Shown: piece by piece, positions 2 to 59,790 of the stretch
How positions within the stretch are numbered: position 1 is the stretch's first letter
Layout: each line of letters begins with the position of its first letter
Program-made: the position numbers and the translations under genes
Assembly: GCF_044704955.1 (NCBI RefSeq)
Contig: NC_091980.1
Location: 129,208,001-129,272,000 of the forward strand
DNA: 64,000 nt
Direction of reading: 5' to 3'
DNA from: Pristiophorus japonicus
Lineage: Eukaryota
Notes under the pieces: model-generated
Databases searched by the model: none
The model's input: the letters and a program-made list of their open reading frames with translations, nothing else
Told to the model about the DNA's origin: nothing

Positions 2-190
2 CCCCCAGCATGGTGGGATTTGGGAATACGGGCAGACATACCTGCATGGATCCGGGTGGGATCGCATGCCTTAGTAATCGGCCAACTCCTGATTGTAGCT
101 TATCTGCTAGTTACAAGCTGTAAGCTCAGGAGAAAAAGAAAAAGAACGCAGTTCCTCAGGCTACTACACAGCCAGGAGAGCCGTTGCTAA
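2..190 (+). CDS. env: C-terminal end of a retroviral envelope (env)-like ORF: Trp-rich membrane-proximal region, transmembrane helix, basic tail; ORF runs in from outside the window
   Basis: Frame 2 reads PPAWWDLGIRADIPAWIRVGSHALVIGQLLIVAYLLVTSCKLRRKRKRTQFLRLLHSQESRC* (TAA 188-190). It lies upstream of a polypurine tract and a long LTR. Confidence 0.6.
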   Translation, partial: PPAWWDLGIRADIPAWIRVGSHALVIGQLLIVAYLLVTSCKLRRKRKRTQFLRLLHSQESRC

Positions 191-5880: not shown

Positions 5881-7735
5881 TGAATAGCTATCGTAGATTG
5901 GGTATTGTGCAATGAGAAGGGGTTACTTAATAGTCTTGTTGTGCGGGGTCCTTTAGGGAAGAGTGACCATAACATGATTGAATTCTTCATGAAGATGGAA
6001 AGTGAAGTAGTCCAAGCCAAAACTAGGGTCCTAAATCTAAACAAAGGAAACTACGAAGGTATGAGGAATGCTATGATAGTTTCGGAAGAGTGATTAAAAG
6101 GCATGAGGTGGACAGTCAATGGCTAACATTTAAGGAACAAATGCAGGAATTGCTTTCTGACACAAAAACACAAAAGGAAAAGTGGCCCAACCATAGTTTA
6201 CAAAATAAATTAAGGATAGTATTAGATCCAAAGAGCTGTCTGTTATGTATTTAACCCTTTGTAATCTGCATTACAGCTGACCACAGAGGGCCCACCTGTT
6301 GGAGTCCCAAGGGATCCCAGCATCCCTTGGGAGCACAGTATATAAGCAGGCCACCCACGAGGTACCTGCACTCTGGAATCTTATTAAAAGGAGCTCAGGT
6401 CACACTAGCGCTTTACACACAGTACTCAGTCTCACCATTTATTATGAGTGTAACAGACTCATACAATGTTGCCATAAAAAGTAGCAAGCCTGAGGATTGG
6501 GAGCAGTTTAGAATTCAGCAAAAAAGGACCAAGAGATTAATTAAGAGGGGGAAAATTGAATATGAGACGAAACTTGCAAGGAACATAAAAACCGATGTAA
6601 AAGTTTCTCCAAGTATGTAAAAAGAAAAAGATTAGTGAAGACAAATATAGGTCCTTTAGTCAGAAACGGGATCATTTATAATGGGGAACAAGGAGATGGC
6701 AGAACAATTAAATACTTTGGTTCTGTCTTCTCAGAAGAGAACACAAATAACGCAGAAATGCTAGGGAACTAAGGGTCTAGTGAGCAAGAGGAATTAAAGG
6801 AAATGCTTAGTCAACATGAATTTATGAAAGGAAAACCATGTTTGACAAACCTACTGGAGTTTTTTTTGAGGCTGTAACTGAGATTAGATAAGGGAGAACC
6901 AGTGGATGTAATGTATTTTGATTTTCAGAAGGCCTTGGTTAAAGTCCCACAAGAGTTTAGTATGCAAAATTAAAGCACATCGAATTGGGGGTAATATACT
7001 GGCATGGATTGAAAATTCGTTAATTGATAGGAATAAACAGGTTTTTCCTGGGTGGTGGGCAAGGATTAGTGCTTGGACCCCAGCTAATCACATCTATAAA
7101 TAGAGGAGGAAACCAAATGTAATATTTCCAATTTTTCCCCCAGTACAGGAGTAAGGATGTCCTGCTACAGTTTTACACGGCCTTGGTAAGACCACACCTG
7201 GAGTATTGTGCACAGTTTTGGGTCTCTTTAAGCAAGAGAGAGCACAGCAAAGGCTCACCAGACTGATTCCTGGGATGGAAGGATTGTCTTATGAAGAGAG
7301 ATTGGGGTCGATTAGGCCTGTATTCACTAGAAGAGCGATAGGGGATCTTATTGAAACATAAAATTCTGACTGGGTTAGATAGACTGGATGCGGGGAGGAT
7401 GGTTCCCCTGGCTGGCAAGTCTAGAATTTAAAAAAAAGGGGCATAAGCTCAGGATAGGGGGGTAGGAAATTTAGCACTGAAATGAGACGTTTTCACTCAC
7501 TCAGAGGGTAGTGAAGCTAGGGAATTCTTGACCACAGAAGGCAGTGGAGCCCAAGTCACTGAATATATTTAGGAAGGAAATAGATATCTTGATAGAAAAG
7601 ACATGAAGGACGATGGGGTAAAAGCAGAAATATGGTGTTGTGTTAAAGGATCAATTATGATCATATTGAATGGCAATGAAGGGCTTAAAGGGCCAAATGG
7701 CCTACTACTGCTCCTATTTATGTTTTTATGAATAT
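5881..7735 (+). mobile_element. Degenerate, internally deleted CR1-type LINE (ORF2 pieces and 3' UTR)
   Basis: ORF fragments PLGKSDHNMIEF, LTNLLEFF and YTALVRPHLEYCAQFW; similar to the CR1 at 61890-64000. Confidence 0.85.
6241..6455 (+). mobile_element. Solo Gypsy LTR nested in the CR1
   Basis: TGTTATGTATTTAACCC...TATGAGTGTAACA; closely matches the LTR at 12959-13173. CR1 sequence resumes on both sides. Confidence 0.85.
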
Positions 7736-8319
7736 ACATGTCAATATCTTGAAATTACCACAGCAAAAAAAAAAATTATAGGACTGTTCCCACCTGCAGA
7801 AGGGTAGACAACCAGCAGACAGATTTAAGGCAATTGGCAGAAGAACCACAGCTGACTTGAGGAAAGCTTTTATGCAGGGAGTGGTTAATATCTGTACTGC
7901 ACTGCCTGAGAGGCTGGTAGTGGTAGATTGAATCATGGAATTCGACAAGCACCTGAAGGGAAAAAAATTGCAGGGCTACAGGGAAAGTGCAGTGGAGTGG
8001 AACTAGCTGAAGTGTTCTTGCTGAGAGCCAGCACAGGCTCGACCAGCTGAATGTCCTCCTGTGCTGTTAGCATTCTATGACTGAATCCCAGGGCAAGACT
8101 ATTGCATAGCCAAGTGAAATATTGGGCCTATAACAAGTTATGATAAATAGAAAATAAGCAACCAATCAAACTTGCAAGGAGACAAAACCAATCCAATATT
8201 GGACAGTTTATTTACAGTCCAATACTGTAAATTACATTTCACATCAAGAGCCCAGGTCTCTTAGCCTGTACTAAGTCAAAAGTAGGTCAGAGTCTCAATT
8301 ATATAAACACAAGCTTCTG

Positions 8320-10874
<2,555 letters not shown>

Positions 10875-11110
10875 TTTAGTGGTGTTTATTTTTCTGAAGT
10901 ATAAACTTTGTAGAAGTACCAAGATAACATTTAACCAACCTCAAACTCCTGTATTAATACTGAGCGATAATCCAGGGTGTGGCAGTCCTCAATATCCAAT
11001 CAGAAGTTGCAGCCTCTCAGAGCACCAATCAATTAAAGGGAGGAGGTGGATGCACTCCCAGAGCCAGTCAGATCTTTGAAAAGTGAGAATCATTGGCTGA
11101 CAACTCAATG
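10875..11110 (-). promoter_or_regulatory. Promoter and 5' UTR of ferritin A (TATA-like TATTAATA, three CCAAT boxes, no IRE)
   Basis: Mirror of 24750-24983. TATTAATA at ~10952-10959; CCAAT motifs at ~10996, ~11025 and ~11092. Confidence 0.6.
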
Positions 11111-11768
11111 AGGATCTCAATTGTCCAAAATTTCCTCAAACACAGTTCAAATATTCAGAATCACAGGTTTAAATTAATCCTCTACTCTTTGGGCTAATTA
11201 ATTGGGATGATTAAATCAGCTATCAGAAACACTTAAACCATAAGTGCCAACTTTATAAGGGGGAATAAACTGTAAGGTCCACATTATGACAAAACTAACA
11301 TTAAAAACTTTTCAAATTATAATTTAGTTCCCTGTATCCACGTTGCACTGTAGTCCCTCTGGTGCCCACCGGTCACGGAAAGCCTCAAGCAGACCGGCAG
11401 ACACCGCGTGCTCCCTCTGCAGGGATACCCGGGCACTGACATAGCCGCGGAAGAGAGTCAGGCAGACAGAGAGAACACCCCATCGTCCGTGCTCTGCCTG
11501 GAGCAGTTAATGGCCACCTTGAAAGATTCATTGAATCCTCTGTTATTTGCAAGTCAGTGTATTTTTTATAGTTCTGAATTGTTCAGTGGGTTGGTCATTT
11601 GCAGGTATCTGTGGATGCAACATCCAAAGACAGAGCAGTGAGTCTGCAAAGCAACCGACAGCGGGTCAGGTGACTGGACAGTGCGTGTGAGGAATGTGAC
11701 AAGCGCAAGTGCTCAGATACTCCATCACTTCCAGGTTTAGTGAGCACCTGTACACACAGGAGCTAGAA

Positions 11769-14358: not shown

Positions 14359-14620
14359 GCCTAGCCTCCCCTATTTGCTTCATCAATATCACTCCAATGG
14401 TTGTGACGGCCTCATGGCAATTTTATATTCAAACACATTGGTTCATGGTAATGTTGACATTTGATTGTAGGTTTGTTTAATCCATTATATGTGAACTGTT
14501 GCTTTCCAGAAACCGGAGCAGGATGAGTGGAGCAATGGTCTGGAGGTGATGCAGAGAGCTCTGCAGATGGAGAAGAATGTGAACCAGAGTCTGCTGGATC
14601 TGCACAAACTCTCCACTGGG
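14359..14620 (+). pseudogene. Orphan ferritin intron-2/exon-3 fragment (exon part 14510-14620) inserted inside a CR1 fragment
   Basis: TTTCCAG|AAACCGGAGCAGGATGAGTGG...CTCTCCACTGGG encodes [37 protein letters not shown]. The flanks rejoin as continuous CR1 sequence. Confidence 0.9.
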
Positions 14621-15037
14621 TCACTTGAAAAGAGAAGGCTGAGGGGTGAGCAAATAGAGTTCCATATAATTATGAAATGTTTGATAGAGTAGATACAAAG
14701 AGAATGTTTTCACATGTGGGGCAGAGCAAAACTAAAGGCCATCAATATAAGGCAACTGATTCCAATTTGGCCAAGCTGGTCAGTGCCAGTTTTAATGCTC
14801 CACAAGAGCCTCCTCTCTCCTTGCTTCATCTAATCCGATCAACATATCACTCTATTCCTTTCTCTCCCATGCACTTGCCTAGCCTCCCCTTAAATATGCT
14901 ATTTGCTTCATTAATATGACTCCAATGGTTGTGATGGCCTCATGGCAATTTTATATTCTAACACATTGCTTCATGATAATGTTGACATTTGATTGCAGGT
15001 TTGTTTCATCCATTATACGTGCAATGTTGCTTTCCAG

Positions 15038-15660
15038 AAACCAGAGCAGGCTGAGTGGAGCAATGGTCTGGAGGTGATGCAGAGAGCTCTGCAGATGGAG
15101 AAGAATGTCAACCAGAGTCTGCTGGATCTGCACAGACTCTCCACTGGGAGCATCGACCATCATGTAAGTTTCTCATGTGGGCTTTTGGGTAAGTTGGAGG
15201 TTGTGGAACCTTGCTGTGTTTGCGCCTAATTAAAGGATTACCACGCCCAATAGCTTTGTTGGTGGATTTTTATTGAGCTTTGGGAAGGGACGGAGGAAGG
15301 TGGCCTCCTGTGGACATTGTCTAGTAAATATGTCTCAGTGATCCCAGGATCTGATCACTTATTGTGCAGTAAGTTTAATCTCATTCCATCAATTTCACTG
15401 CTTGACTATACTCCACTTCAAGAGGATTAAAATTTAAATTCTCAAGTGGAAGCTGACATTCCTTGATATCTGCTGCTGGACATAACTAGTTTCCTTCTTT
15501 CAGTTGTGTGACTTCCTGGAGACCCACTACTTGGATGGACAAGTGAAGATGATCAAGAAGCTTGGTGATCACATCACCAACCTGAAGAGACTGGGAGCCC
15601 CCCAAGTATGGCCTGGAAGAGTACCTGTTTGACAAGCACACGCTGGGGGAGAGTCACTAA
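15038..15660 (+). pseudogene. Ferritin pseudogene B (exons 3 and 4 only)
   Basis: Exon 3 at 15038-15163; exon 4 at 15504-15660 is 157 nt (+1 C in the run at ~15598-15603) and has E137G. No exon 1 or 2 found upstream. AATAAA ~15776. Confidence 0.9.
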
Positions 15661-23765: not shown

Positions 23766-24749
23766 GCAGGCGTTCCTCACTCTGAGCTCAGAACTGTGCT
23801 AATGGCTAACCCTCATCTGTGCCTTTTTTCACTAGAATTGACTATTTCAATGCTCTCCTGCTCACCTTACATGCTCCATAAACTTAAGCTTATCCAAAAC
23901 TCTGCTGCCTGTATCCTAACACACATAACCCCTGTGATTGTGGACCATCATTGGCTCCCGGTCTGACAGCGCCTCAAATTCAAAATGTTTATCCTTGTAT
24001 TTAAATCCCACCATGGCCCCTCCCTCACCTCTTTTCCCAGCACATTGATAACATCGGTGCTGTTTCCTGCTCTCACAGTAAACTGGAAAATTTAATTCAC
24101 TACGTTTCCAATTTCTACCTTTCACTCACCTTCACATGGTCCATCTCTGTTCCTTCCCTTCCCTTTCTCAACTTCTCTGTCTCTATTTCTAGACATAGCC
24201 TATCGACAAATATCCAATGAGATGTTTGGATGTTGCTTCAAACCTGCAGATACCTGCAAATGACCAACCCACTGAACAATTCAGAACTATAAAAAATACA
24301 CTGACTTGCAAATAACAGAGGATTCAATGAATCTTTCAAGGTGGCCATTAACTGCTCCAGGCAGAGCACGGACAATGGGGTGTTATCTCTGTCTGCCTGA
24401 CTCTCTTCCGCGGCTATGTCAGTGCCCGGGTATCCCTGGAGAGGGAGCACGCGGTGTCTGCCAGTCTGCTTGAGGCTTTCCGTGACCGGTGGGCACCAGA
24501 GGGACTGCAGTGCAACGTGGATACAGGGAACTAAATTATAATTTGAAAAGTTTTTAATATTAGTTTTGTCATAATGTGGACCTTACAGTTTATTCCCCCT
24601 TATAAAGTTGGCACTTATGGTTTAAGTGTTTCTGATAGCTGATTTAATCATCCCAATTAATTAGCCCAAAGAGTAGAGGATTAATTTAAACCTGTGATTC
24701 TGAATATTTGAACTGTGTTTGAGGAAATTTCGGACAATTGAGATCCTCA

Positions 24750-24983
24750 TTGAGTTGTCAGCCAATGATTCTCACTTTTCAAAGATCTGACTGGCTCTGG
24801 GAGTGCATCCACCTCCTCCCTTTAATTGATTGGTGCTCTGAGAGGCTGCAACTTCTGATTGGATATTGAGGACTGCCACACCCTGGATTATCGCTCAGTA
24901 TTAATACAGGAGTTTGAGGTTGGTTAAATGTTATCTTGGTACTTCTACAAAGTTTATACTTCAGAAAAATAAACACCACTAAA
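24750..24983 (+). promoter_or_regulatory. Promoter and 5' UTR of ferritin C
   Basis: GCCAAT 24761, GATTGG ~24828 and ~24857, TATTAATA 24899-24906, Kozak-like AAAATGG. No C-N5-CAGUGH stem-loop. Confidence 0.6.
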
Positions 24984-27534
<2,551 letters not shown>

Positions 27535-28129
27535 CAGAAGCTTGTGTTTATATAATTGAGACTCTGACCTACTTTTGACTTAGTACAGGCTAAGAGACCT
27601 GGGCTCTTGATGTGAAATGTAATTTACAGTATTGGACTGTAAATAAACTGTCCAATATTGGATTGGTTTTGTCTCTTTGCAAGTTTGATTGGTTGCTTAT
27701 TTTCTATTTATCATAACTTGTTATAGGCCCAATATTTCACTTGGCTATGCAATAGTCTTGCCCTGGGATTCAGTCATAGAATGCTAACAGCACAGGAGGA
27801 CATTCAGCTGGTCGAGCCTGTGCTGGCTCTCAGCAAGAACACTTCAGCTAGTTCCACTCCCCTGCACTTTCCCTGTAGCCCTGCAATTTTTTTCCCTTCA
27901 GGTGCTTGTCGAATTCCATGATTCAATCTACCACTACCAGCCTCTCAGGCAGTGCAGTACAGATATTAACCACTCCCTGCATAAAAGCTTTCCTCAAGTC
28001 AGCTGTGGTTCTTCTGCCAATTGCCTTAAATCTGTCTGCTGGTTGTCTACCCTTCTGCAGGTGGGAACAGTCCTATAATTTTTTTTTTTTGCTGTGGTAA
28101 TTTCAAGATATTGACATGTATATTCATAA

Positions 28130-29990
28130 AAACATAAATAGGAGCAGTAGTAGGCCATTTGGCCCTTTAAGCCCTTCATTGCCATTCAATATGATCATAA
28201 TTGATCCTTTAACACAACACCATATTCCTGCTTTTACCCCATCGTCCTTCATGTCTTTTCTATCAAGATATCTATTTCCTTCCTAAATATATTCAGTGAC
28301 TTGGGCTCCACTGCCTTCTGTGGTCAAGAATTCCCTAGCTTCACTACCCTCTGAGTGAGTGAAAACGTCTCATTTCAGTGCTAAATTTCTTACCCCCTAT
28401 CCTGAGCTTATGCCCCTTTTTTTTAAATTCTAGACTTGCCAGCCAGGGGAACCATCCTCCCCGCATCCAGTCTATCTAACCCAGTCAGAATTTTATGTTT
28501 CAATAAGATCCCCTATCGCTCTTCTAGTGAATACAGGCCTAATTGACCCCAATCTCTCTTCATAAGACAATCCTTCCATCCCAGGAATCAGTCTGGTGAG
28601 CCTTTGCTGTGCTCTCTCTTGCTTAAAGAGACCCAAAACTGTGCACAATACTCCAGGTGTGGTCTCACCAAGGCCGTGTAAAACTGTAGCAGGACATCCT
28701 TACTCCTGTACTGGGGGAAAAATTGGAAATATTACATTTGGTTTCCTCCTCTATTTATAGATGTGATTAGCTGGGGTCCAAGCACTAATCCTTGCCCACC
28801 ACCCAGGAAAAACCTGTTTATTCCTATCAATTAACGAATTTTCAATCCATGCCAGTATCTTACCCCCAATTCTATGTGCTTTAATTTTGCATACTAAACT
28901 CTTGTGGGACTTTAACCAAGGCCTTCTGAAAATCAAAATACATTACATCCACTGGTTCTCCCTTATCTAATCTCAGTTACAGCCCAAAAAAAAACTCCAG
29001 TAGGTTTGTCAAACATGGTTTTCCTTTCATAAATTCATGTTGACTAATAATAATTTACTTTAATTCCTCTATAGCAGTATCTGCATTACCCCTTTCCTTT
29101 GTGAAAACAGATGCAAAGTATTCGTTACGAACCCTACCAACATCTTCCGCTGCCACACAAAGATTACCCTCATGTTCTCTAATAGGCCCTACCCTTTCTT
29201 TAGTTACCTTCTTACTCTTAATATATTTATAGAACATCTTAGGGTTTTCCTTAATTTTACTGGGCAAGAATTTCTCATTCTCTCTTAGCATTCCTAATAT
29301 CCTTTTTAATTTTGCCTCTTAACTTTCTATATTCCTCTAAAGATTCTAAAGTATTTAGCCGTTGATATATGACATAAGTGTCCCTTTTTTTCTTAATCGT
29401 CCACTAAGTCCCTAGACATCCAGAGGGCTCTAGAATTATTTTTCCCAGCCTTTTTCTTTAAGGGAGCATGTTTGGCCTGAGCATTCTGGAACTCCTCCTT
29501 GAATGCCTCCCACTGTTCCGACACTGATTTACACACAAGTAGCTGTTTCCAGTCCATTATGGCCAAATCATTCCTTAACTTAGCAAAATTAGCTTTTCCC
29601 CAATTTGGAACTTTTATTCTAGGCCTATTCTTGTCCTTATCCATAACCAGCTTGAATCTAACTGAATTATGGTCACTGACACCCAAGTGCTCCCCCACTA
29701 AGACCCCTTCAAACTGCCCAGCTTCATTTCCCAAAATTAAATCCAAGACTGCCCCTCTCGTGTTGGTCGTGCGACATACTGACGAAAAAAGTTCTCTTGA
29801 ATGCATCTCAAGAATTCCGCACCTTCATACCCTTCACACTAAATTTGCCCCAATCAATACTTGGATAGTTTAAAATCCCCTAATATTACTCCCGATGGTT
29901 TTAAGACTTCACAGCAATTTGCCTAAATATTTTCTCCTCTATCTCCTTCCCACTGTTTGGGGGGGTCTATAATACACACCCAGCAGTGCG
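28130..29990 (-). mobile_element. CR1-type LINE fragments: duplicated part 28130-29070 fused to a different CR1 subfamily 29070-29990
   Basis: ORFs AVLDLILGNEAGQ...GEHLGVSDHNSVRF and KIKENPKMFYKYIKSKKVTKERVGP...YFASVFTKE. Confidence 0.85.
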
Positions 29991-32924: not shown

Positions 32925-33204
32925 AGACAGTGACATCACCGAGACTGATCTCCCAAACCTGCCTGTTATCCAAAGCTCTGATTGGCTCTGGGTCTCGACC
33001 CCGCCCCACATTCCCTCTTCTTTGTTAATTGGTGCCTGGAATCAGGGAAGATTCCTAACTGGCTCTCAGGGATTGTCAATCATCATTGGTGATGTCACTC
33101 CCTGTTTGAATGCAGACTGTCCCAGTAGTATAAATACAGGAGCATGTGTGAGAAAGGGTCAGTGCTAGAACTGTGTAGGTGATAGTGTAATTTAGATAGC
33201 GAAG
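32925..33204 (+). promoter_or_regulatory. Promoter and 5' UTR of ferritin D: TATA, CCAAT, GC box, two CRE/AP-1-like TGACATCA sites
   Basis: TGACATCA 32931-32938, GATTGG ~32980, CCCCGCCCC ~33000, TGATGTCA 33090-33097, TATAAATA 33129-33136. Homologous to the promoters of E and F. Confidence 0.65.
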
Positions 33205-37748
<4,544 letters not shown>

Positions 37749-40217: not shown

Positions 40218-43200
40218 TGTGATAGTCACGGAGCACAAGGCACAAATGTTTTTAAGATAGAGCAGCTTTCTGGAACTCTCTGTGGAAGCTGCTTCTTGTC
40301 AGGTTTATTAAACACTCTGGTGCAGTAACACAAGATGCCCAATTGGTTGAGCTACAGACATTACATTTCTCCCTCCTTAATGAAGAAGTTATTATAACAA
40401 CAATCATCACACATAACTTGCATGGTTATACGTAACAAAGGATATGAACTTATTTTGCCGTATTTACAAATTAAACTTATTCACTTGTTTTCTGTTTCGA
40501 AGAGGATACTTTTGCTCTCAAATAGAACCTTCCAAACATGGTATTGAACTTAAACTCAATCGAGGCTGATCCTGAGGAACGTTTTCCTCTAAGGGCCCTT
40601 AATTTCCATTTGAACTCTCTCTATCTTCAGGCTGTTTGTTTTCCCAACTCGGACTCAGATTAAATTATGATTTTTCTCTTGAATTTGTTTCCAGTACATT
40701 AGGTGTAGGATATGCTACTGGTGTATCAAAACTGTCTGATGAGTCAGAAATAATTAAATCATTCCCACCTTCAACTCCTTCCATGTCTGAAGGTAAAATA
40801 TGATCAATGTGAACAAACCTAACCTATCAAACATCTTGACCAAATATCTTCACCAATCTTCCGAATAACCACTTTACCCATTTATAGTGATGGTCCTTCA
40901 TGCTCACCACCTGATTTAATTTCACACTTCTTTCTTTTACTCTACCTCTATCATGATTTTCTTTCTGTCTTAATTGTATCTCTTCTACAGACTGTGCCAA
41001 ATTTGGTTTGAACAATGAGAATCTGGTTTGTGGCTGTCGTTTGAAAAACAACGTTGCTGGTGTTCTACCAGTAGTTGTATGAGAAATATTACGGAATGTA
41101 ATTAGAAAATTAGCCAATTTGTGATCGAATGACAACTGTCATTTCTTTGGATTTGGATCCAACATTTGTTTGATGAGGGCACGTTTTACAATTTGTAGAG
41201 TGTGCTCTGCTGCACCATTTGAAGCAGGGTGGTACGGTGTTTCACATCATTTTTGCTCGTGAACTGTGCAAATTTTTCTGAATGAAATTGTGGTCCATTA
41301 TCAGAAACAATTTCTTCTGGGAGGCCAAATGAAGAAATTAAACTTTGCAAAATGTCGAATGTTTTACTTGTTGTAATTTTCCACATTGGAAACACCTCGA
41401 GCCACTTCAAATGGCTATCAATCACAATGAACAATTATTATCCTTCTAGCTCAGCAAAATCAATATGTAGCCTTTGCCACACCTTGGAAGGCCATTTCCA
41501 TTGCTGTAATGGTACTGATGGTGGTTGCTTGCTTAACGATTGACGTGTCGTACACTGACTCACGATGTACTCTATATCTTTATCAAGACCTGGCTACCAT
41601 AAGTAACTACGTGCAAAACTCTTGGTCGAGCACATTCCCAAGTGCTGGTCATGGAGGTCTGTTAATAATTTGGACCTGAATTTATTTGGTATAACCACTC
41701 TTGCACCCCACATCATACAATCTTTATCGACTGATAATTCATTCCTATGAAAGAAGAATGGGTGAATATCTTTGTCTTTTACTGGTTTGGGCATCCATTT
41801 GCAATATGCTCATACACATTTGACATCACTGGGTCATATTTGGTTGCTCTACCAATCTCCTCAACTGTGACTGGCAGTTCATCATTGTATGAAAAATAAA
41901 ACACTTCTTCCCTATTGGGTGTAACTTGTGATGGGGAAGTCAATCTAGACATAGCATCAGCATTACTGTGATCAGCTGATCGTCTGTATTCAATATCATA
42001 TGTATATGCTGATAAAATCAAAGCCCATTTCTGCGTTCGGGTTGTAGCTAATGTTGGAACTGGGGACTTTGGATGGAGGATTGCTGTCAGGGTCTTATAG
42101 TCCGTAACGATGGTAAAGTTACCACCATACAAGTATTTGTAAAACTTCTTGACCCCAAAAATTAATGTAAAGCTTCCCTTTCAATTTGTGCATAATTACT
42201 CTCACTGGCACTGAGAGTGCATGAAGCAAAAGCAATTGGTCTCTCCTCCCAACTATATGCTACATGAGAGATCACTGCCCCAACTCCATACGGAAAGACA
42301 TCACATGCTAGCTTGATTTCCTGAGATACTTCATAGTGAACTAACATGGTGCTCTCTACCAAGTTGCTTTTACACTCCTTGAATGCTGTATCGCATTCTT
42401 CTGACCACTTCCAATGGATCTGTTTTTTCAATAGTTCATTCAGTGGATGTAATACTGTCGACAAATTTGGTAGGAACTTCCCATAATAGTTCAAAAGACC
42501 CAAAAATGATGGAAGTTCAGTGACATTCTTGGGAGTGGGTGCATTTCTGATTGCATCCAGCTTTGCCATGGTTAGATATAAACCATCTTTGTCTACTCTG
42601 TACCCCAAGTACTCCACTGAGTTTTTAAATAACTCACACTTACGAGCAGACACTCGTACTCTGTGCTTCTCTAGCCATTTGAGGACTTCATTTAATATGT
42701 TATTATGAATTTGCCTATTTGGTGCTGTTATCAGAATATCATCTAAATAACATTATACCCCTTCAATACCTTGCAAAATCTGGTTCATCACCCCTTGGAA
42801 TATGGCAGGAGCAGAAGATACTCCAAACGGTAGCCTATTCAATTGATATGGGCCTAGATGAGTATTTATAGTCAAGCATGACTTGGACTCCTCATCTAGT
42901 TCAAGCTGTAAGTAGGCATTCGTAAGATCCAACTTTGAGAAGATCTGACCACCTTTCAGTGTTGTGAACACATCTTCTACATTTGGCAATGTATTGGGGA
43001 TATTACCCTCTAGAACCTGGTTTACGGTTACTTTATAATCACCACACAATCGTATCTTACCATCAGACTTAGGTATAACAACAATGGGTGTAGCCCAATT
43101 ACATCGATCTATCTTAGAAATAATGTTTTCAGTTTCTAGTCTTTTGAGTTCTTGCTCAATTTTCTCCTTGAGTGCATATGGTATGGAACTTGGCTTGTAG

Positions 43201-44869
43201 TAAACCGATCTAGCGTCCTTCTGCACCCTGACACTCGCTTTGAAGCCTTGGATCGGACTGCCCGTTTTCCAGAACACCTTTGGATAATTCTTGATGACCT
43301 CATCCGTTGATGCAAATTTCATTTCAACACGAAAAATCTTACTCCACTACAACTTCAGTGATCCCAACCAATTTCTTCCTAAAAAGGCAGGCTTGTCTCC
43401 TGCCACTGCTATTAGAGGCAAGCTCAGAACTTGATCCTTGTATTTCATTGATACGGTGATACAACCTACCACAGAAATGTTCTCTCCCAAGTAGCCTCGC
43501 AGCTCTATCTTGGATTTCTCCAGTTGGAAATCACACAATTTGTCGAGGTATAGTGACTCCGGTACTACACTCACGGATGCACCCGTGTCGATTTCCATGG
43601 GTATCTTGAATCCCACAACATCTATGTGGATTATGATACTTTTCGAATCGCTGTCCGTTAACCTCGTGCTCCAGATGACGTTTAACTCTAACATCTCCTC
43701 GTCCTGTTTTTGTTTTTCCATGCTGTGTAGTATCTGGGGATTTTTACTCATAGCTTTGAAAGCTGAACAAATAGTTTTGAAAACTGGTTTACCATTTTTT
43801 CGGCATGGCTTCGCAAGCTGTCCAGATTTCCTGCAGAAGAAACACTCTGCCTTCACATTTGGACAACTTTGAGCAATGTAATGTCCCAGGCTCTGATAGC
43901 AGGATGTCAATGCTCTCTTACAATTTCTAGTTTCTGAGACTTTGGGCCTGCACCGCCTTTTACTTTGAACCTGCAGGCGATTAACCTTGGTTGTCTGGCG
44001 ACTGAAAATAATAGAAATTCTCATGAATATTGGTCGGCCATGCTCATCGACCTAGATGTCTGACAAGCTATATCAAAGGTCAAGTCAGACATTGTCAATA
44101 ACTTTCTTCTGATCACGAACAAAATGGTCCCACAATGCTCGGTTCTGAAAGTTTCAAAAATTACAGCGAATAGATAGCTTTTTTAATGCTACAATGTATT
44201 CACTGATATTTTCATCAGCCTTTTGACTTCATAAACCGAAACGATAGCTTTCTGCAATTTCCAAGGGTATGGGGTTGTCATGCTGTGAAAATCTCCTCAA
44301 GCATTGTGTCCTTTGACCGGCAGGCACAAGCAAATTTATCAGCGTTTTATACAACTCAGGCCCAGCTTCAGTTAAGAAAATAATTTTCTTTTCCATCACC
44401 GCCCCGTTCTGGTCTGCATTCTCTGGGACTTTGATTATGCTATTTGCAGCAAAATACATTTCTAGCCAATCCACATATGCTTTGAACCTTTCCCGGTCAT
44501 GTTTATATTCCCTGAAATGTCACATCACTCCCATAGTTGCAGCCATTTTAACTCTGGCAGTTCAACAGTGTGCTCATAATTTACCTCAAATTTGTAGCTG
44601 TAATTAAAATACAAAAACTCTCAAAGTCTCTCTGTCAGCTGGCTGAATCATTCACCAACAAAAATTTCAGCTTTGTTTTATCCGATTATCCCATTCGTTG
44701 CCACCATTTGTGATAGATTCACAAATCACACAGCACACAAGCTTTTACGATGGAGCAGCTTTCTGGAACTCTCTGTAGAAGCTGTCTCTTGTCAGGTGAC
44801 TTGACTGTTTATTAAACACTCTGCTGCAATAACACAATATGTCCACAGTGTGGAGCTACAGACATTACA
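40218..44869 (-). mobile_element. Full-length but degenerate Gypsy (Mag-like) element with both LTRs
   Basis: LTRs 44709-44869 and 40218-40365; PBS TGGTGGCAACGAATGGGAT (tRNA-Leu-like); PPT AAGGAGGGAGAAA. Gag, protease IDTGASVS, RT YLDD, RNase H ACD..PYGVGAVISH, integrase IVSDNGPQF. TSD CCAAT (40213-17) / CCACT (44870-74). Confidence 0.93.
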
Positions 44870-47800
44870 CCACTGAAGCTGTGACAGCAAGCTGATGCCA
44901 TCTGTTGCTTTCCCTCCTCACCCAATTGTAGTGCCCAGAGTTCCATGTGCTGAGATATTGCTTGTCTGCCTACAAAGCTTAATAGAAAGCCGATAGCAGC
45001 AGTGGTGAGTCCAGTTACTGAACTACCTGAATAACTGAACAGGATCTGTAGCAGCTATTGAATACAAACTGCTCTTCACAGGGCTGATACACTAAATAGG
45101 AAGCTAATCCAGGACTTTTTCTTCACTGCACTGAAATGGTGCAACATTAATTTACTGGCAAAAACCCTCTATGTTTAACAAATGTCACATCTTGTTGGAT
45201 TGAATTGTCATTTAAGCAAGGGCAGATAGTTGGAACAGTTAATTTTATACAGCTTCTAAGTCCCAAGCTCTGGAGATCCCTCCCTAAACATCACTGTACT
45301 TCCTTAATACATACCTCTGACCAGGCTTTTGGTCACTGGGCCAATATCCCATTGGGTTGTCAGTTGTCCGAACACACCCTTGAACATTTTAGATCTTACA
45401 ACAGGTGCCAGACTATCTCAGTCGATACATCAACATTACACGAGAGGAAAACACATTTCATAGGACTGAATCCCATATAACTGTTGCACAGCTCAGTGCA
45501 ACTCTTGTTTGGTGTAAACCAAGTTATGTTAAATGAAAAATAAGCAACCACTCAAACTTACAAGGAGACAAAACCCAGTCCAATGTTGAACAGTTTATTT
45601 AGAGTGATGGGTCTCAGCTCTTTGTACAAAATCACAAGCCATCATTCCCTACAAGACAGGGGTCTGATTATATAAATACAAGTACGAAACACAATAAGTT
45701 TGATCCCATCAGTCAGTTTAGTAACTCTCCCCCATGGTGTGTTTATCAAACAGCTACTCTCCCATGCCATTCTTAGAGGCTCCCAGTCTCTTCAAATTGC
45801 TGATGTGATCTCCCAGCTTCTTAATCATCTTCACTTGTTCATCCAAGTAGTGAGTATCCAGGAAGTCACAAAACTGAAAGAGGAAAACGAGTTATGGCCA
45901 GTGCCAGATATCAAGCAACATCCGAACTTATCCCTCGAAAGTTGTGATTTTAATCCTCTTGGACTGGAGAAAAATCAAGTGGGGTAATTAAGATTGATGT
46001 AAATTTGCTCTAATGACGCTCCAACTCCTATACAATGGGTGCTTAGATCCTGGAAACACATTTATGTCCACAGGAGGCCAACCTCCCGGTCCTCTCCCCA
46101 AATAACTGAAGAACCCAGGAGAGATACTCCAACACAACACTATTGGGCAGAGATCTTTGGAATAGGCTCGAGGACAGCAATATTCCAACTTACCCAAAAA
46201 CCCACATGAGGAACTTACATGAGGGCCGGTGCTCCCGGTGGAGAATTTGTGCAGATCCAACAGACTCTGGTTCACATTCTTCTCCATCTGCAGAGCTCTC
46301 TGCATCGCCTCCAGACCATTGCTCCACTCATCCTGCTCTGGTTTCTGAAGAGGCAGTTTACTTACAATCAATTAATCAAAATATGAGAAAGTAGAAGGAA
46401 AACAGGTGAAAAAGCAACGAGACACCCAGAATATAGAATTACTGCATTCCACCACCAGAACCATGGAATAAAATTGGAACCAATTGCTTTAGAAAGTATT
46501 TAAAACAATCAGTCCATGGGGATCCTGAAAGAAGGCAAATCGTTTATTGAATCAAACCTTGATGTCAGACATGATGATCCGTCCTCCACGCTGATTCTGG
46601 AATTCCATCAGTTTCTCAGCGTGCTCACGTTCCTCATGTGACTGCTTCTTGAAGAACTCAGCAAAGTGACGCAGGGCAACATCATCCCAGTCAAAGTAAA
46701 AGGACTGCAAAGAGAATTTCAAACAGCTTTTTCAGACATTGATCTTCATATACAAGGCAAGATTATTTTTCCACTTAGTTAGCTAATTCTGAATCTTTCA
46801 AAAATAATTACCATTTGTTCACTAGCTAAAGTGCAATTCACTTCACTAATTGGAGTTGGATAGCCACTCCTTCCTATAACAGGATTAGAGATGTCCAGTA
46901 AAACTCAATTCTACTCCTGGACAAGTAATAGTTCCTGTCATTCACACAAGACATTAAACAGAGGCCCTGTCTGTCCTCCGGTGGATGTGAAAGATCTCAA
47001 GGAAGCGAGATTTACACTAGGCCTATATGCTCTAGAGTTTAGAAGAATCAAAGGTGGTCTCATTGAAACAAACTACAAAATTCTTACAGTGCTGGACAGG
47101 GTAGATGCAGGGAGGATGTTTCCCCTGGCTGGGGAGTCAAGAACCAGGGATCACAGTCTCAGGTTAAGGGGTCGGCCATTCAGGACTGAGTGGAGGAGAA
47201 ATTTCTTCCCTCAGATGGTGGTGAATCTTTGGAATTCACTACCCCAGAAGAGTATAATCAAGACAGATCAATAGATTATTCGATATTAAGGGAACAAAGC
47301 GATATGGAGACAGTGAACGAGGTGGAGATGAGGTAGAAGAAACGCTGTGATCTTATTGAATGATGGAGCAGGCTCGAGGGGCCAATGGCCTACTCCTTTG
47401 CTCTAGGTAATACTTCAGAGAGCAGAGGAGAACGCTGCAGTGTCCTGGCTAATATTTATCACTCAACCAACACCACTAAAACAGATGATCCGAACATTAT
47501 CTCATTGCAGTTTGTAGGAGCTTACTGTGCTCTAATTGGGTGCTGTGTTTCCTATATAACAGGTAACTACACTTAACTACTTCATTGACTACAAAGCACG
47601 TTGGGACATTCCAAGTTAGTGAAAGGCACAATAGAAATGATTATTCTTCCATTCTAATCCAAGTTTGGGCATGGAGTGAGAAAAATCCTCCACTCCAGTA
47701 GTTTACACAGCAATAGTGCAATAGAGATCTCAGCAGTGAGCAGGGCTCCAACACCAGGATTCTCAGTACTTCACCTCCAATTAATGAGAACACTAGTGAG

Positions 47801-48160
47801 GACCTGCCCACATTTCACTCACTACAGTCCTCCCACTGAAATTGAATGTTGTTTCAGGTCAACAGGCCCCTGACCAGGTTTGTGCTCTTCTGTCATACAC
47901 TCAGGCAGCAGCTGAGCTGGTTTCAGATATTAAACCTCAATAGAGGGAAGTTTTTACAGGAAGCAGTCCATTAAATCAACAAGATCCCCCTGCATTACAC
48001 ACCTGAAGTCCTCACTGCCCAAAGACTCTTCTCCCCCAGGGAAGGAAGTCCAGAGAAATACAGCTTAAAGCCGGTTCATCAAACTGGAGAATTGCCAACT
48101 TTTCAGAATGCAGCAACAAGGAATACAAGACTCATCATGGAGAGGTAAACATAGGAGGAA

Positions 48161-49333
48161 CATAGAAACATAGAAAATAGGTGCAGGAGTAGGACATTCG
48201 GCCCTTCGAGCCTGCACCACCATTCAATAAGATCATGGCTGATCATTCACCTCAGTACCCCTTTCCTGCTTTCTCTCCATACCCCTTGATTCCTTTAGCT
48301 GTAAGGGCTATATCTAACTCCCTCTTGAATATATCCAATGAACTGGCATCAACAACTCGCTGCAGTAGGGAATTGCACAGGTTAACAACTCTCTGAGTGA
48401 AGAAGTTTCTCCTGATCTCAGTCCTAAATGGCTTACCCTTTATCCTTAGACAATGTGCCCTGGTTCTGGACTTTACATCCTTCGGAACATCCTTCCTGAA
48501 TCTAACCTGTCCAGTCCCGTCAGAACTTTATATGTTTCTATGAGTTCCCCTCTCATCCTTCTAAACTCCAGTGAATACAGGCCCAGTCGATCCAGTCTCT
48601 CCTCATATCTCAGTCCTGCTATGCCGGGAATCAGTCTGGTGAACCTTTGCTGCACTCCCTCAATAGCAAGAACGTCCTTCCTCAGATTAGGAGACCAAAA
48701 CTGAACACAATATTCCAGGTGAGGCCTCACTAAGGCCCTGTACAACTGCCGTAAGACCTCCCTGCTCCTATACTCAAATCCCCTAGCTATGAAGGCTAAC
48801 ATACCATTTGCCTTCTTCACCGCCTGCTGTACCTGCATGCCAACTTTCAATGACTGATGAACCATGACACCCAGGTCTCGTTGCACCTCCCCTTTTCCTA
48901 ATCTGCCGCCATTCAGATAATATTCTGCCCTCGTGTTTTTGCCACCAAAGTGGATAACCTCACATTTATCTACATTATACTGCATCTGCCATTCGTTTGC
49001 CCACTCACCTAACATGTACTAGTCACCCTGCAGCCTTTTCGCATCCTGCTCACAGCTCACACTGCCCCCCAGCTTAGTATCATCTGCAAACTTGGAGATA
49101 TTACACTCAATTCCCTCATCCAAATCATTGATGTATATTGTGAATAGCTGGGGTCCCAGCACTGAGCCCTGCGGCACCCGACTAGTCACTGCCTGCCATT
49201 CTGAAAGGGACCCGTTTATCCCAACTCTGCTTCCTGTCTGCCAACCAGTTCTCTATCCACGTCAGTACATTACCCCCAGTATCATGTGCTTTAATTTTGC
49301 ACACCAATCTCTTGTGTGAGACCTTGTCAAATA
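48161..49333 (-). mobile_element. 5'-truncated CR1 LINE (RT C-terminus and tail reading (CATAGAAA)n on the plus strand) within ferritin E exon 1
   Basis: ORF 48473-49015 WQMQYNVDKCEVIHFG...LYRALVRPHLEYCVQFWSP. Confidence 0.9.
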
Positions 49334-49637
49334 TGTGGAAAACCCTGGACATTCTGGCTAGGGCGATGACCAGCTTGTTACCCTGATGGCTCATTGCAAA
49401 AAGCAGCTTGTAACTTAACTGCACAGACCAAGGCCCCAGTTTGATCGCCAGCCTGTGCAGAGTTAACTGATCTGTTGCTAGACGTGCTACAGCGTGCCTG
49501 GTGAAACATCAGGAGGAAAGAATGAACTTGCATTTCTACAGCGCCTTTCACATCATCAGGACATCCCAAAGTGCTTTACAGCAAACTTATAGTACGTTTA
49601 TTTTGAAGTATAGTCACTGCTATAATGTAGGAAATGC

Positions 49638-49849
49638 CTCATCACCGAGAGTATGCAGAAATCAAGCGCAGGCAGCGGAAGGAGCGGGCAGCAAACCTGT
49701 CCCACCCACCTTTTCCCTCAACGACTATCTGTCCCAACTGTGACAGAGACTATAGTTCTCGTATTGGACTGTACAGTCACCTAAGAACTCATGTTAAGAG
49801 TAGAAGCAAGTCTTCCTCAATTCCGAGGGACTGCCTATGATGATGATGA
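49638..49849 (+). mobile_element. Short RTE 3' fragment inserted in an HE1-like SINE
   Basis: (ATG)n tail; TSD AGGAAATGC at 49629-49637 and 49850-49858. Confidence 0.8.
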
Positions 49850-51548
49850 AGGAAATGCAGCAGCCAAAATGTGCATAGCAGGATCCCAAACAGCAATGTG
49901 ATAATGGGCAGATAATGTTTTAGTGATGTTGGTTGAGGGATAGTTATTGGCCAGAACACCTGGGAGAAATCCCTGCTCTTCTTTGAATAATAACATGGGA
50001 TCTTCCAAATCCACCTAAGCCCCATTTACCATCTCATCCAAAGAGTGCAGCATTCTTTCAGTACGGCACTGGAGTGTCAGCCTGGATTTTGTTCTCAAGT
50101 CTCTGGAGTTTGGCCTGAAACCACAACCTTCTGACTCTGAAATGAGAATGTTATCACTGAGCCAAGGCAGCTAAGTTTCCAATTCCTGTTCAGTATAGTG
50201 ATGTGAGCTGAAAGGTTTGTGGATCACAGACAAGAACAGAACTAGGCTTGGCTGGAATACCATCAACAAATGAAGAGTCTGGGAACACTCGCTGTCTAGA
50301 TTCACATCAACTATGGCCATTGGAGTGAGGTATCAGAGGGCTGCCAGTACCATTAAGAGTCAGCACCTTCAGGAGAGAAGGGAGAACAAGAATTCCTCAA
50401 TGCTCCACTGAATTTGCTTTTAAGCATGTCAAGATGGTGGAGATTCTTCATGTTGCTCAATGTAAGGGAAACCAAACTATGTGTGATGTGACAGTAAATA
50501 TAATGGAAGCTCTTACACTGAGGAGGTGAGGTTGCACGTGACACCTTTATGGACCATTACGGCAGGTGGAGCCGTTTCTAGGATCTAGATACCTAGCATC
50601 TTATGTAACAGCTGGCTCCATTTCAGGAATGAAATAAAATAGAGTTAAGAGTAGTGGAAGATCATATTGTGATGTAGTCCCTAATAATAGAAAATATGAT
50701 GCATCCAGAATTGGCATTATATTGTATAAAATGATTGTATTTATGCTGCAGAATGCTTGTGTTCTAGAATTTTCTTTTTGAAGGAAAGACAATATCAAAT
50801 AGGAGTTTCCTGACTAGCTTATCCTTTCAGTGTTAGAAACAGGTTAGGTGAGAGTTGCTAAGATGGATATTTTCCTTCTGGAATAAACCAATGCATATTG
50901 AAAAATCTTCAGGAAGAAGGTGTTTGGGCAAACCCTTGCTTTATTTTGGAGGGAGACCAGCCAAAGAGCCACAGACCTTTTTTTTACACAATGGCATCAC
51001 GTGCAAACAGAACAGTGATGCATTTTCAGGCAACTTGCATCATTGCATCTTGTTCAAAAATGAACAAGAACCATGGTTTATTAAACACTTTCTTCATGGT
51101 GACAGCACTGCTTTAAAAGGGCTGCCTATGTGAATAAAATATAAATGCACAGCCCTTCACAGGGTGCCTCATGATCTAATTCTATCGCACATTGCAAATG
51201 AATGTCATGTGGTCTATTTAACGAATGGCCGCTGCGTTCCACTCCATTGGCCACCCCAACCCAAATTCAGCTCGGGTTTTTTCTGCCTGTCCCCACTTCC
51301 GCCCCGCTGTTGCTGACTGCTGCAAGCACGCCAGCAAAGCGCGCACTGCCGCTATTCCGCCCCATTTCAATCCGTCCCAAATTTGCGAAAACATTTCCAT
51401 GAACCGTTGAACGGTGTCCCTGACAGCTTTTTCTGTCGGCCCACCTTGTCTGCTCTCTCTCTGCCCTGGCAGTGCAGCGGCCATTGATCTGCTTGTTGAC
51501 AGCAACCTCACAGTCCTTCTGGTAATTCTGACACACCTGGGAAGCCAT

Positions 51549-51750
51549 CTTCACTATGTATATTGCACGATTACTGCTCACTATCAGCTGCACAGTTCTA
51601 GTATTGACCCTTTCTCACACAAGCTCCTGTATTTATACTGCTGGGACAGCCGGCATTCAAAGAAGGAATTACATCACCAATGATGATTGGCTCTCAAGGA
51701 TTGTCAATCAGGAATCTTCCTTGAATCCAGGCACCAATTAACAAAGGAAA
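51549..51750 (-). promoter_or_regulatory. Promoter and 5' UTR of ferritin E
   Basis: TATAAATA ~51637-51630, CCAAT boxes and TGATGTAA ~51676-51669; homologous to the D and F promoters. Confidence 0.6.
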
Positions 51751-55188: not shown

Positions 55189-59479
<4,291 letters not shown>

Positions 59480-59790
59480 CTTCACTATCTATATTACACT
59501 ATTACTTCTCACTATCTCCTGCGGAGTTCTCAAATTCACACTATTGTGCTCAAGTTCCTGTATTTATACTATTGGAACAGCTGCATTCAAACAGGGTATG
59601 ACATCACCAATGATGATTGGCTCTCAGGGATTGTCAATCAGGAACCTTCCATGAATCCAGGCACCAATTAACAAAGGAGAGGAGGTTTGGGGGCGGGGCT
59701 GGGGGAGATCCAGAGCCAATTAGAGCTTTGGGAAACACAACATTTTGGGAGATCAGTCTCGGTGATGTCACTGACTTTGGGTTCCTTGAA
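59480..59790 (-). promoter_or_regulatory. Promoter and 5' UTR of ferritin F
   Basis: TATAAATA 59568-59561, TGACATCA ~59599 and TGATGTCA ~59763 (plus-strand reading), CCAAT boxes, GGGGCGGGG ~59690. No IRE. Confidence 0.65.

What the first reader, a model, noticed from the sequence alone, without database searches (positions are those of the whole stretch)
24899..24986. All cluster ferritins appear to lack an iron-responsive element
Seen: in A/C, D, E and F a TATA box lies only ~75-90 nt upstream of the ATG, implying 5' UTRs of ~50-60 nt. None contains the C-bulge/5-bp stem/CAGUGH loop. Established: canonical vertebrate H, M and L ferritin mRNAs are repressed by IRP1/IRP2 through a 5' UTR IRE. 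Inference: this family is uncoupled from IRP control and could be translated regardless of iron level, with regulation moved to transcription. That would suit an inducible iron-withholding or stockpiling role.
Basis: partly seen in the sequence, partly recalled or inferred. Interest (0 to 1): 0.8.

Follow-up and report, generated by a model that had tools for sequence, protein, structure and literature searches.

The report
Shark ferritin array with decayed iron-switch
A shark carries a huge array of roughly 300 ferritin genes whose iron-sensing RNA switch is broken (a remnant is still visible in most copies), so these iron-storage genes probably escape the iron control that governs ordinary vertebrate ferritins.

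Summary
The five ferritin starts here belong to a 5.6-Mb tandem array in a shark genome, estimated at about 290-330 copies. None of 140 copies examined has an IRE within 110 nt of the ATG under a 22-motif SIREs-like scan, while the genome's ordinary H and M ferritin genes score perfect IREs. Processed retrocopies support a short, unspliced 5' UTR.

New: in the main subfamily (102 of 140, including A/C) the IRE decayed in place. A remnant lies 42-48 nt before the ATG; the consensus matches the M-gene IRE at 18 of 23 bases, with the loop changed from CAGUGU to CAAAGU and the lower stem lost. D/E/F-type UTRs show no significant remnant.

Intact copies keep ferroxidase residues under purifying selection (dN/dS 0.21); one third of fully seen copies are broken. 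The family is chondrichthyan-wide, with IRE-less paralogs beside the M gene.

Loss of IRP control is well supported but not assayed. An inducible iron-withholding role has no direct support.

The parts
24762..24862 (+). CCAAT/ATTGG boxes of gene C promoter (24762, 24829, 24858)
   Evidence: 3-5 such boxes in 117 of 140 array promoters versus 1 in the H and M promoters
24899..24906 (+). TATA-like box of gene C (TATTAATA; family consensus TATAAATACAGG)
   Evidence: this block matches the TATA-like block of the IRE-bearing M gene
24928..24983 (+). Predicted 5' UTR of gene C (~55 nt, unstructured). An AUG at 24928 lies at the predicted cap site
   Evidence: start inferred as TATA+29..31 from retrocopy 5' ends; fold -3.1 kcal/mol, z 0.72; upstream AUG
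24936..24958 (+). Decayed IRE remnant: C8 at 24942, loop CAAAGT at 24948-24953, upper stem 2 of 5 pairs, 15 of 23 bases identical to the M-gene IRE
24984..27537 (+). Ferritin gene C, intact, 174 aa; exons 24984-25085, 26422-26568, 26970-27095, 27385-~27537; polyA signal at 27642
   Evidence: the intron 1 and intron 3 joints are seen in contigs of runs X1/X2
8317..10959 (-). Ferritin gene A, intact, 174 aa (ATG 10874, TATA 10959, IRE remnant 10922-10900); inverted duplicate of C
14510..15651 (+). Ferritin fragment B: two exon-3 pieces and exon 4, no 5' end
33129..37747 (+). Ferritin pseudogene D, type II UTR (TATA 33129, ATG 33205); stop in exon 2 and frameshift in exon 3
45721..51637 (-). Ferritin pseudogene E, type II UTR (TATA 51637, ATG 51548); exon 1 split by a ~3.3-kb insertion
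55190..59568 (-). Ferritin gene F, intact, 176 aa, type II UTR (TATA 59568, ATG 59479)

Best explanation
These are members of a chondrichthyan-specific ferritin family. Inferred history: it arose by tandem duplication of an IRE-bearing ferritin gene at the locus that still holds the M gene, lost IRP control, and one offshoot was amplified into a ~300-copy array. In the main subfamily the IRE decayed in place: loop G16 and U17 changed to A, the upper stem acquired mismatches, and the 3' lower stem was lost together with ~90 nt of UTR. IRP1/2 should no longer bind, so mRNA from a TATA plus multi-CCAAT promoter with a ~55-nt unstructured leader is translated whatever the cytosolic iron level. Output is then set by transcription and gene dosage, giving bulk ferroxidase-competent ferritin in the cells that switch the array on, while the single-copy H and M genes keep normal iron homeostasis. 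Shown: sequence anatomy, remnant, copy number, selection, residues. Inferred: loss of IRP binding, iron-independent translation, bulk-output role, order of events.
For: 0 of 140 with a SIREs-type motif near the ATG; both controls positive. No C-N5-CAGWG ahead of a family-type start inside the array. A profile built from 71 type I UTRs without reference to the IRE ranks the IRE first of 628 windows in both the M and H upstream regions; 3 of 175,714 background windows score as high. G16 kept in 4 of 65 and U17 in 9 of 65 unique elements. Median fold energy -2.8 versus -8.9 kcal/mol for the M IRE. Retrocopy L149 is spliced and collinear with the genomic UTR to -44; L152 to about -56 (TATA+29), as in the H control retrocopy (TATA+31). 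dN/dS 0.21 over 61 intact CDS; E27, Y34, E61, E107 and Q141 kept in 61 of 61. Family-type paralogs without IRE lie within 92 kb of the M gene. Spliced family contigs in two relatives. Human FTL IRE loop mutations give the highest ferritin excess (PMC3585816).
Against: No binding or translation assay. No RNA run of this organism, so the start site rests on two retrocopies. In yeast three-hybrid tests a G3-to-U loop change only slightly lowered IRP binding (10.1101/524991), and SIREs motif 7 has A at n16; 6 of 103 copies keep C8 and 5 of 5 upper-stem pairs. Type II UTRs (D, E, F) show no significant remnant (rank 127 of 628). 34 of 102 fully seen copies are broken; dN/dS among 40 close pairs is about 0.5. 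The trees do not place the family as sister to M, so descent from M rests on location and core-promoter likeness. The remnant matches the H and M IREs almost equally.
Confidence: 0.72

Rival explanations
1. One reading: the array is an inducible (infection or inflammation) iron-withholding system, with IRE loss selected so that ferritin is made when iron is low.
For: IRE loss would permit this. Teleost ferritin isoforms respond to infection and IL-1beta (PMC4117605), although those all carry IREs. The TATA/CCAAT, CpG-poor promoter (CpG o/e 0.22) suits regulated transcription.
Against: No conserved inducible element found: ARE-like sites in 18 of 102 type I and 0 of 38 type II; MRE-like 7-mers lie at scattered positions. 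NF-kB and STAT sites were not scanned. No expression data under challenge.
Confidence: 0.22
2. Largely neutral birth-and-death: the array grew by segmental duplication in a 5.9-Gb repeat-rich genome. The IRE decayed under relaxed selection because H and M do the regulated job, and most copies are dispensable.
For: 34 of 102 copies broken. Near-identical segmental and inverted duplicates. dN/dS about 0.5 among close pairs. The remnant is no more conserved than its flanks (0.79 versus 0.76 and 0.70).
Against: Overall dN/dS 0.21 and near-invariant catalytic residues. 58 distinct intact proteins among 67 CDS. The family persists in chimaera, sharks and rays, with large 90%-identity clusters represented by several species. 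Spliced contigs in relatives.
Confidence: 0.2
3. The remnant is a weakened but working non-canonical IRE (or binds another factor), giving graded iron control of part of the array.
For: The 5' arm and the C14-G18 pair are often kept; 6 of 103 copies keep C8 and a full upper stem. Single loop changes can be tolerated. The position is cap-proximal.
Against: CAAAGU is not among the 22 SIREs motifs. Both G16 and U17 are changed. The lower stem is lost and the predicted folds do not form the IRE hairpin. No excess conservation. Gene C keeps only 2 of 5 pairs. Rfam gives no match even for the best remnant.
Confidence: 0.1
4. The real transcripts start further upstream and splice an IRE-bearing non-coding exon onto the UTR.
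For: No direct 5'-end data. An AG-ending T-rich tract exists at 24955-24965. Run X2 has low contig cover over 24663-24904.
Against: Retrocopies L149 and L152 run unspliced through that tract to -44 and about -56 and stop near TATA+29. The RF00037 search found 8 genomic hits, none on C4 (82 candidates scored). The remnant already sits in the proximal UTR.
Confidence: 0.04

Closest known systems
Vertebrate cytosolic H/M ferritins (FTH1; teleost and amphibian middle subunit)
   Same: Four exons with the same phases; ~176-aa subunit; ferroxidase residues; top PDB matches of family member P0009 are frog and human H/M ferritins.
   Different: H and M mRNAs carry a 5' IRE (all five salmon isoforms, PMC4117605; this genome's L014 and L011). 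The array genes form a separate chondrichthyan clade, have no working IRE and number ~300.
Mammalian mitochondrial ferritin (FTMT)
   Same: IRE-less, ferroxidase-active, transcriptionally controlled ferritin (PMC13010531).
   Different: FTMT is a single intronless gene with a targeting peptide, thought to be a retrocopy. The array genes keep introns, have no presequence, and lost the IRE by point decay in place.
Hadal snailfish fthl27 tandem expansion
   Same: Tandem amplification of a ferritin gene in a fish, linked to ROS tolerance (14 copies versus 3; PMC10746142).
   Different: About twenty-fold smaller; teleost lineage; the passages seen do not address the IRE.
Atypical IRE-less invertebrate ferritins (sponge HdF2, EmF2)
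   Same: IRE-less paralogs beside IRE-bearing conservative ferritins (PMC8395497).
   Different: Those are low-copy, divergent, and predicted not to bind iron; the shark copies keep the ferroxidase centre.
Hereditary hyperferritinaemia-cataract syndrome FTL alleles
   Same: Loop and stem lesions of a ferritin IRE that release translation from IRP (PMC3585816).
   Different: Single pathogenic human mutations, versus multiple fixed lesions in a gene array under purifying selection.

Membership tests
IRE (Rfam RF00037 / SIREs) | Apical loop CAGWGH or one of 22 accepted motifs | tested here: not met
   0 of 140 within 110 nt of the ATG; commonest type I loop CAAAGT, 50 of 103
IRE (Rfam RF00037 / SIREs) | C8 bulge plus 5-bp upper stem | tested here: not met
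   Gene C: C8 present, 2 of 5 pairs; only 6 of 103 type I copies have C8 and 5 of 5 pairs
IRE (Rfam RF00037 / SIREs) | Lower stem and stable hairpin; covariance-model score | tested here: not met
   Median -2.8 versus -8.9 kcal/mol; no Rfam match for gene C or L047
IRE (Rfam RF00037 / SIREs) | IRP1/IRP2 binding and iron-dependent repression | not testable with these tools
   needs EMSA or reporter assays
IRE-derived remnant (homology) | Sequence and positional homology to the parental IRE beyond chance, type I UTRs | tested here: met
   rank 1 of 628 in M and H; background 3 of 175,714; consensus 18 of 23; TATA-to-element spacing mostly 38 nt versus 47 in M
IRE-derived remnant (homology) | Same test, type II UTRs (D, E, F) | tested here: not met
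   rank 127 of 628; 20% of background scores as high; a C/T-N5-CTGTGY register is only suggestive
H/M-type (ferroxidase) ferritin subunit | Ferroxidase residues E27, Y34, E61, E62, H65, E107, Q141 (human numbering recalled; offset checked) | tested here: met
   61, 61, 61, 57, 60, 61 and 61 of 61 intact unique CDS; gene C has all seven, but E134K at the three-fold channel (7 of 61)
H/M-type (ferroxidase) ferritin subunit | 24-mer assembly and iron oxidation | not testable with these tools
   no assay; no structure prediction run
FTH1 orthologue | Groups with tetrapod and teleost H; lies next to bestrophin (synteny recalled) | tested here: not met
   L014 on C14 meets both; the array genes do not
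Chondrichthyan IRE-bearing M-like gene (L011) orthologue | Groups with L011 and its ray counterparts | tested here: not met
   separate clade in the quick tree; dN 0.18, dS ~1.6 to L011

The most novel reading that the evidence does not exclude
Cartilaginous fishes replaced post-transcriptional iron control with gene dosage for a whole ferritin class. An ancient family with a naturally inactivated IRE (lesions of the same kind as in human hyperferritinaemia) was amplified to hundreds of ferroxidase-competent genes that make bulk ferritin regardless of iron, for iron loading or oxidative protection in a specific tissue such as germ line, yolk or blood cells.
Probability: 0.35. Interest if true: 0.82.

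Novelty: new variant of a known kind. Interest (0 to 1): 0.64.

Why it matters
The ferritin IRE is the textbook case of translational control, and vertebrates usually have a handful of ferritin genes. A ~300-gene, 5.6-Mb array of catalytically intact ferritins with a visibly decayed IRE gives a graded natural series of IRE mutants for testing what IRP binding needs. It shows that a vertebrate lineage tolerates in bulk a lesion type that causes disease in people, and it points to unstudied iron or redox physiology in sharks. Ten literature searches found no description of it (open-licence library only), although automated annotation already names many such genes.

Tried and rejected
- Rfam scans of the window, the gene C upstream region and L047: no IRE.
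- RNA search: no RNA holder listed for this organism. Contigs of X1/X2 do not cover the UTR at usable likeness and cannot give starts or levels, so their depth is not used as expression evidence.
- Plain identity scoring of the remnant was partly confounded by A/T-rich windows: in the H upstream region a poly-A/T window scored 14.7 versus 14.6 for the IRE. It was replaced by a composition-corrected profile.
- A type II remnant (CTGTGY register) was rejected as not significant.
- Two pattern hits outside the array (C3:131.68 Mb, C18:17.14 Mb) are not ferritin genes.
- L152 as a genomic copy with its own promoter: rejected, no promoter homology (242 of 300 shuffles score as high); a TATA-like word upstream leaves slight doubt.
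- Glycogen-synthase synteny did not tell H from M; bestrophin did.
- The careful protein tree did not finish; only the quick tree is used.
- ARE and MRE scans gave nothing conserved in position.
- Piccinelli & Samuelsson 2007 is not held. Earlier-findings look-ups were empty.

Full report
CHECK OF THE OBSERVATION. The coordinates mark the TATA-like box (24899) and ATG (24984) of an intact four-exon ferritin gene, C. The window holds five ferritin 5' ends and a fragment. A and C are intact 174-aa genes and arms of a 4.8-kb, 99%-identical inverted duplication. F is intact (176 aa). D has a stop in exon 2 and a frameshift in exon 3; E has exon 1 split by an insertion; B has no 5' end. TATA-to-ATG distances are 85, 85, 76, 89 and 89 nt. 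Rfam finds nothing in the window at gathering level and no IRE upstream of C at E up to 10.

THE WINDOW IS A SMALL PART OF A VERY LARGE ARRAY. The window lies at G000:C4:129.21-129.27 Mb of a 5.9-Gb genome. Two exact start-codon patterns match 109 and 63 times; apart from three listed outliers (C2, C3, C19), all listed places are on C4, and 9 matches were not listed. I listed 166 array positions and examined 140 of them; 26 were not fetched. Of the 140, 68 are intact, 34 broken and 38 incomplete within the stretch fetched. An independent set of 136 exon-4 hits spans 127.80-133.40 Mb, and only 68-77 of them belong to listed genes, which gives a rough estimate of 290-330 copies. Named relatives are shark 'ferritin heavy chain B-like' and similar proteins, closest from a sawshark, with 90%-identity clusters of 69-180 members represented by four shark species. 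In a quick tree of 72 proteins (the careful search did not finish) the array proteins group with chimaera, shark and ray sequences (SH-aLRT 94, unstarred), apart from both IRE-bearing genes.

CONTROLS IN THE SAME GENOME. RF00037 gives 8 hits, none on C4; only 82 candidates were scored. Two are intron-containing ferritin genes with perfect IREs. L014 lies tail-to-tail with a bestrophin gene and groups with tetrapod and teleost H (the FTH1-BEST1 synteny is recalled). L011 on C19 I call M-like. I implemented the SIREs rules (PMC2896125, first third of the text; motif table from PMC12230718 section 12). Both controls score motif 1 with no mismatch. None of 140 array copies has any of the 22 motifs within 110 nt of the ATG; 8 of 140 have weak hits further upstream. 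A genome-wide pattern for C-N5-CAGWG 18-45 nt ahead of a family-type start gave 14 hits, none in the array. Seven further copies with divergent starts also show no IRE in their displayed UTRs, by a simpler scan.

THE UTR IS SHORT AND UNSPLICED. No RNA run of this organism was listed, so I used processed copies; a splice-junction pattern gave 6. The H retrocopy L154 begins 31 nt after the start of the H TATA box, and a dispersed M 5' fragment (L003) begins at TATA+30, which calibrates the method. The family retrocopy L149 is fully spliced and collinear with the A/C-type genomic UTR to -44. L152 lacks intron 1, keeps intron 2, is collinear to about -56 (TATA+29) and shows no promoter homology beyond. 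L150 and L153 are 5'-truncated and uninformative. This supports a ~55-nt leader with no upstream exon. It also shows some germ-line or early-embryo transcription. Contigs from two relatives (X1, X2, RNA status guessed) join at the predicted intron 1 and intron 3 boundaries.

Array UTRs fall into type I (102 of 140, including A/C) and type II (38, including D/E/F); one copy was reassigned. In 56 of 110 unique UTRs (69 of 140 copies) the best match to the 23-nt M IRE core beats dinucleotide shuffles at p up to 0.05, at -41 to -51 and mostly at -42 to -48 (copies are not independent). To avoid circularity I aligned 71 unique type I UTRs without reference to the IRE (two disrupted copies and those without a recognisable TATA block were dropped) and built a composition-corrected profile. 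The IRE ranks first of 628 windows in both the M and H upstream regions, and 3 of 175,714 background windows score as high; the background included one Rfam IRE hit. The consensus matches the M IRE at 18 of 23 positions. The lesions: loop CAGUGU to CAAAGU (50 of 103 copies; G16 kept in 4 and U17 in 9 of 65 unique elements); GA to AG in the 3' upper stem; loss of the 3' lower stem. The element sits about 38 nt after the TATA block versus 47 in M, while the stretch to the ATG shrank from 142 to about 45 nt. Fold energy falls from -8.9 to a median of -2.8 kcal/mol (minimum -7.9, n = 64). Gene C keeps 15 of 23 bases and 2 of 5 pairs, and its leader is unstructured. The remnant is no more conserved than its flanks. 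Type II UTRs fail the same test (rank 127 of 628), so for D/E/F the IRE is simply unrecognisable.

ORIGIN. Within 92 kb of the M gene on C19 lie an intact family-type gene (L009) with the same TATA/CCAAT promoter, three or four broken family-type copies and a divergent IRE-less paralog. The TATA block of both array types matches that of the M gene. I infer tandem duplication at this locus, IRE decay, then transfer and amplification on C4. The trees do not resolve which IRE-bearing gene is sister to the family, so the order of events is inference.

THE PROTEINS ARE UNDER SELECTION. Among 61 unique intact CDS, mean dN/dS is 0.21 (0.034/0.161), and about 0.5 among 40 very close pairs. E27, Y34, E61, E107 and Q141 are invariant, E62 is kept in 57 and H65 in 60 of 61 (numbering recalled, offset checked). 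A and C carry E134K at the three-fold channel, as do 7 of 61. Promoters have 3-5 CCAAT boxes in 117 of 140 copies, against 1 in H and in M, and gene C's promoter is CpG-poor. ARE-like sites are not conserved (18 of 102, 0 of 38).

HOW IT MOST LIKELY WORKS. With the loop and stems broken, IRP should not dock near the cap, so translation should not respond to iron, and output is set by transcription and dosage (confidence 0.72). Against full certainty: a G3-to-U loop change only slightly lowered binding in yeast three-hybrid tests (10.1101/524991, two thirds of the text read); 6 of 103 copies keep C8 and five stem pairs; and an AUG occurs within the last 60 nt in 47 of 140 copies, in gene C at the predicted cap site, which could dampen translation. 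What the bulk ferritin is for is open. Immune withholding (0.22) has no direct support, and neutral turnover (0.2) explains the pseudogenes but not the conserved catalytic centre. Two shark transcriptome papers mention ferritin once each, without saying which gene: among the top transcripts of eye and skin (10.1101/364992, one passage) and in liver (PMC5568229, one passage).

COMPARISON AND NOVELTY. IRE-less ferritins are known: mammalian FTMT (PMC13010531, passages) and atypical invertebrate ferritins (PMC8395497, passages). Tandem expansion is known in the hadal snailfish, 14 copies (PMC10746142, passages). All five salmon H/M isoforms keep IREs (PMC4117605, passages). Loop mutations of the human FTL IRE cause the strongest hyperferritinaemia (PMC3585816, passages). 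A ferritin history review showed nothing on a shark array in the passages seen (PMC11719527). Ten searches of the open library found no account of a shark ferritin array or its IRE status (listings and abstract starts only). Subscription papers and genome-paper supplements were not seen and may list the expansion. Verdict: a real feature, a new variant of a known kind, interest 0.64.

Noticed in passing
L163:6773-6967 (+), L164:6419-6786, L011:1578-1730 (G000:C19, ~93.128-93.142 Mb): An intron-containing ferritin gene tail-to-tail with the M gene, on a CpG island, with a ~31-aa Arg/Leu/Ala/Gly-rich N-terminal extension and no acidic residues in it. It looks like a mitochondrial presequence (judged by eye; no predictor run). 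Exon 1 is 100% identical to a 207-aa protein named only 'ferritin heavy chain B-like'. [quoted passage not shown]
   Followed up: partly
L162:8932 to L161:~5880 (-), G000:C19: A divergent ferritin paralog (~65-70% identical to gene C) with the family TATA block, a long IRE-less leader and altered ferroxidase-region residues.
   Followed up: partly
L002-L005 (C10, C12, C17, C18): Four dispersed ~95-nt copies of only the 5' end of the M ferritin mRNA, each with an intact IRE and ending near the same point in the UTR; possibly template-switch retro-insertions.
   Followed up: partly
L009 (G000:C19:93,047,000-93,056,999), ATG at 8484 (-): Intact family-type gene next to the M locus in which E61 and E62 are replaced (A, D). 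Its very short UTR keeps a CAGAGT hexamer without stems.
   Followed up: partly
window 27385-27537 and 8317-8469: Genes A and C carry E134K at the three-fold iron-entry channel and end two residues early (174 aa); E134K occurs in 7 of 61 intact CDS.
   Followed up: partly
type II intact copies, e.g. window 59479 (gene F): Cys replaces Tyr at position 26 in 17 of 61 intact CDS, matching the 17 type II rows; many copies also have Cys at position 6.
   Followed up: no
window 6787-11611 and 24247-29070: 4.8-kb inverted repeat at 99% identity; similar head-to-head pairs recur at C4 129.48/129.49 and 129.69/129.70 Mb, suggesting palindromic segmental duplication.
   Followed up: no
L152 (C11:6,522,080-6,525,104): Partly processed copy (intron 1 removed, intron 2 kept) whose older remnant still has five upper-stem pairs around a CAAAAT loop, hinting that the loop decayed before the stem; single case.
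   Followed up: partly
window 1980-3653, 33972-35845, 42162-44459, 48473-49015, 62265-63976: Decayed retroelement ORFs (LTR-type and LINE-type by appearance, labels recalled) fill the intergenic and intronic space.
   Followed up: no
L008 (G000:C3:267,221,558-267,221,592): An isolated IRE-like hairpin scoring 35.1 bits against RF00037, with no ferritin coding sequence within 1.5 kb.
   Followed up: no
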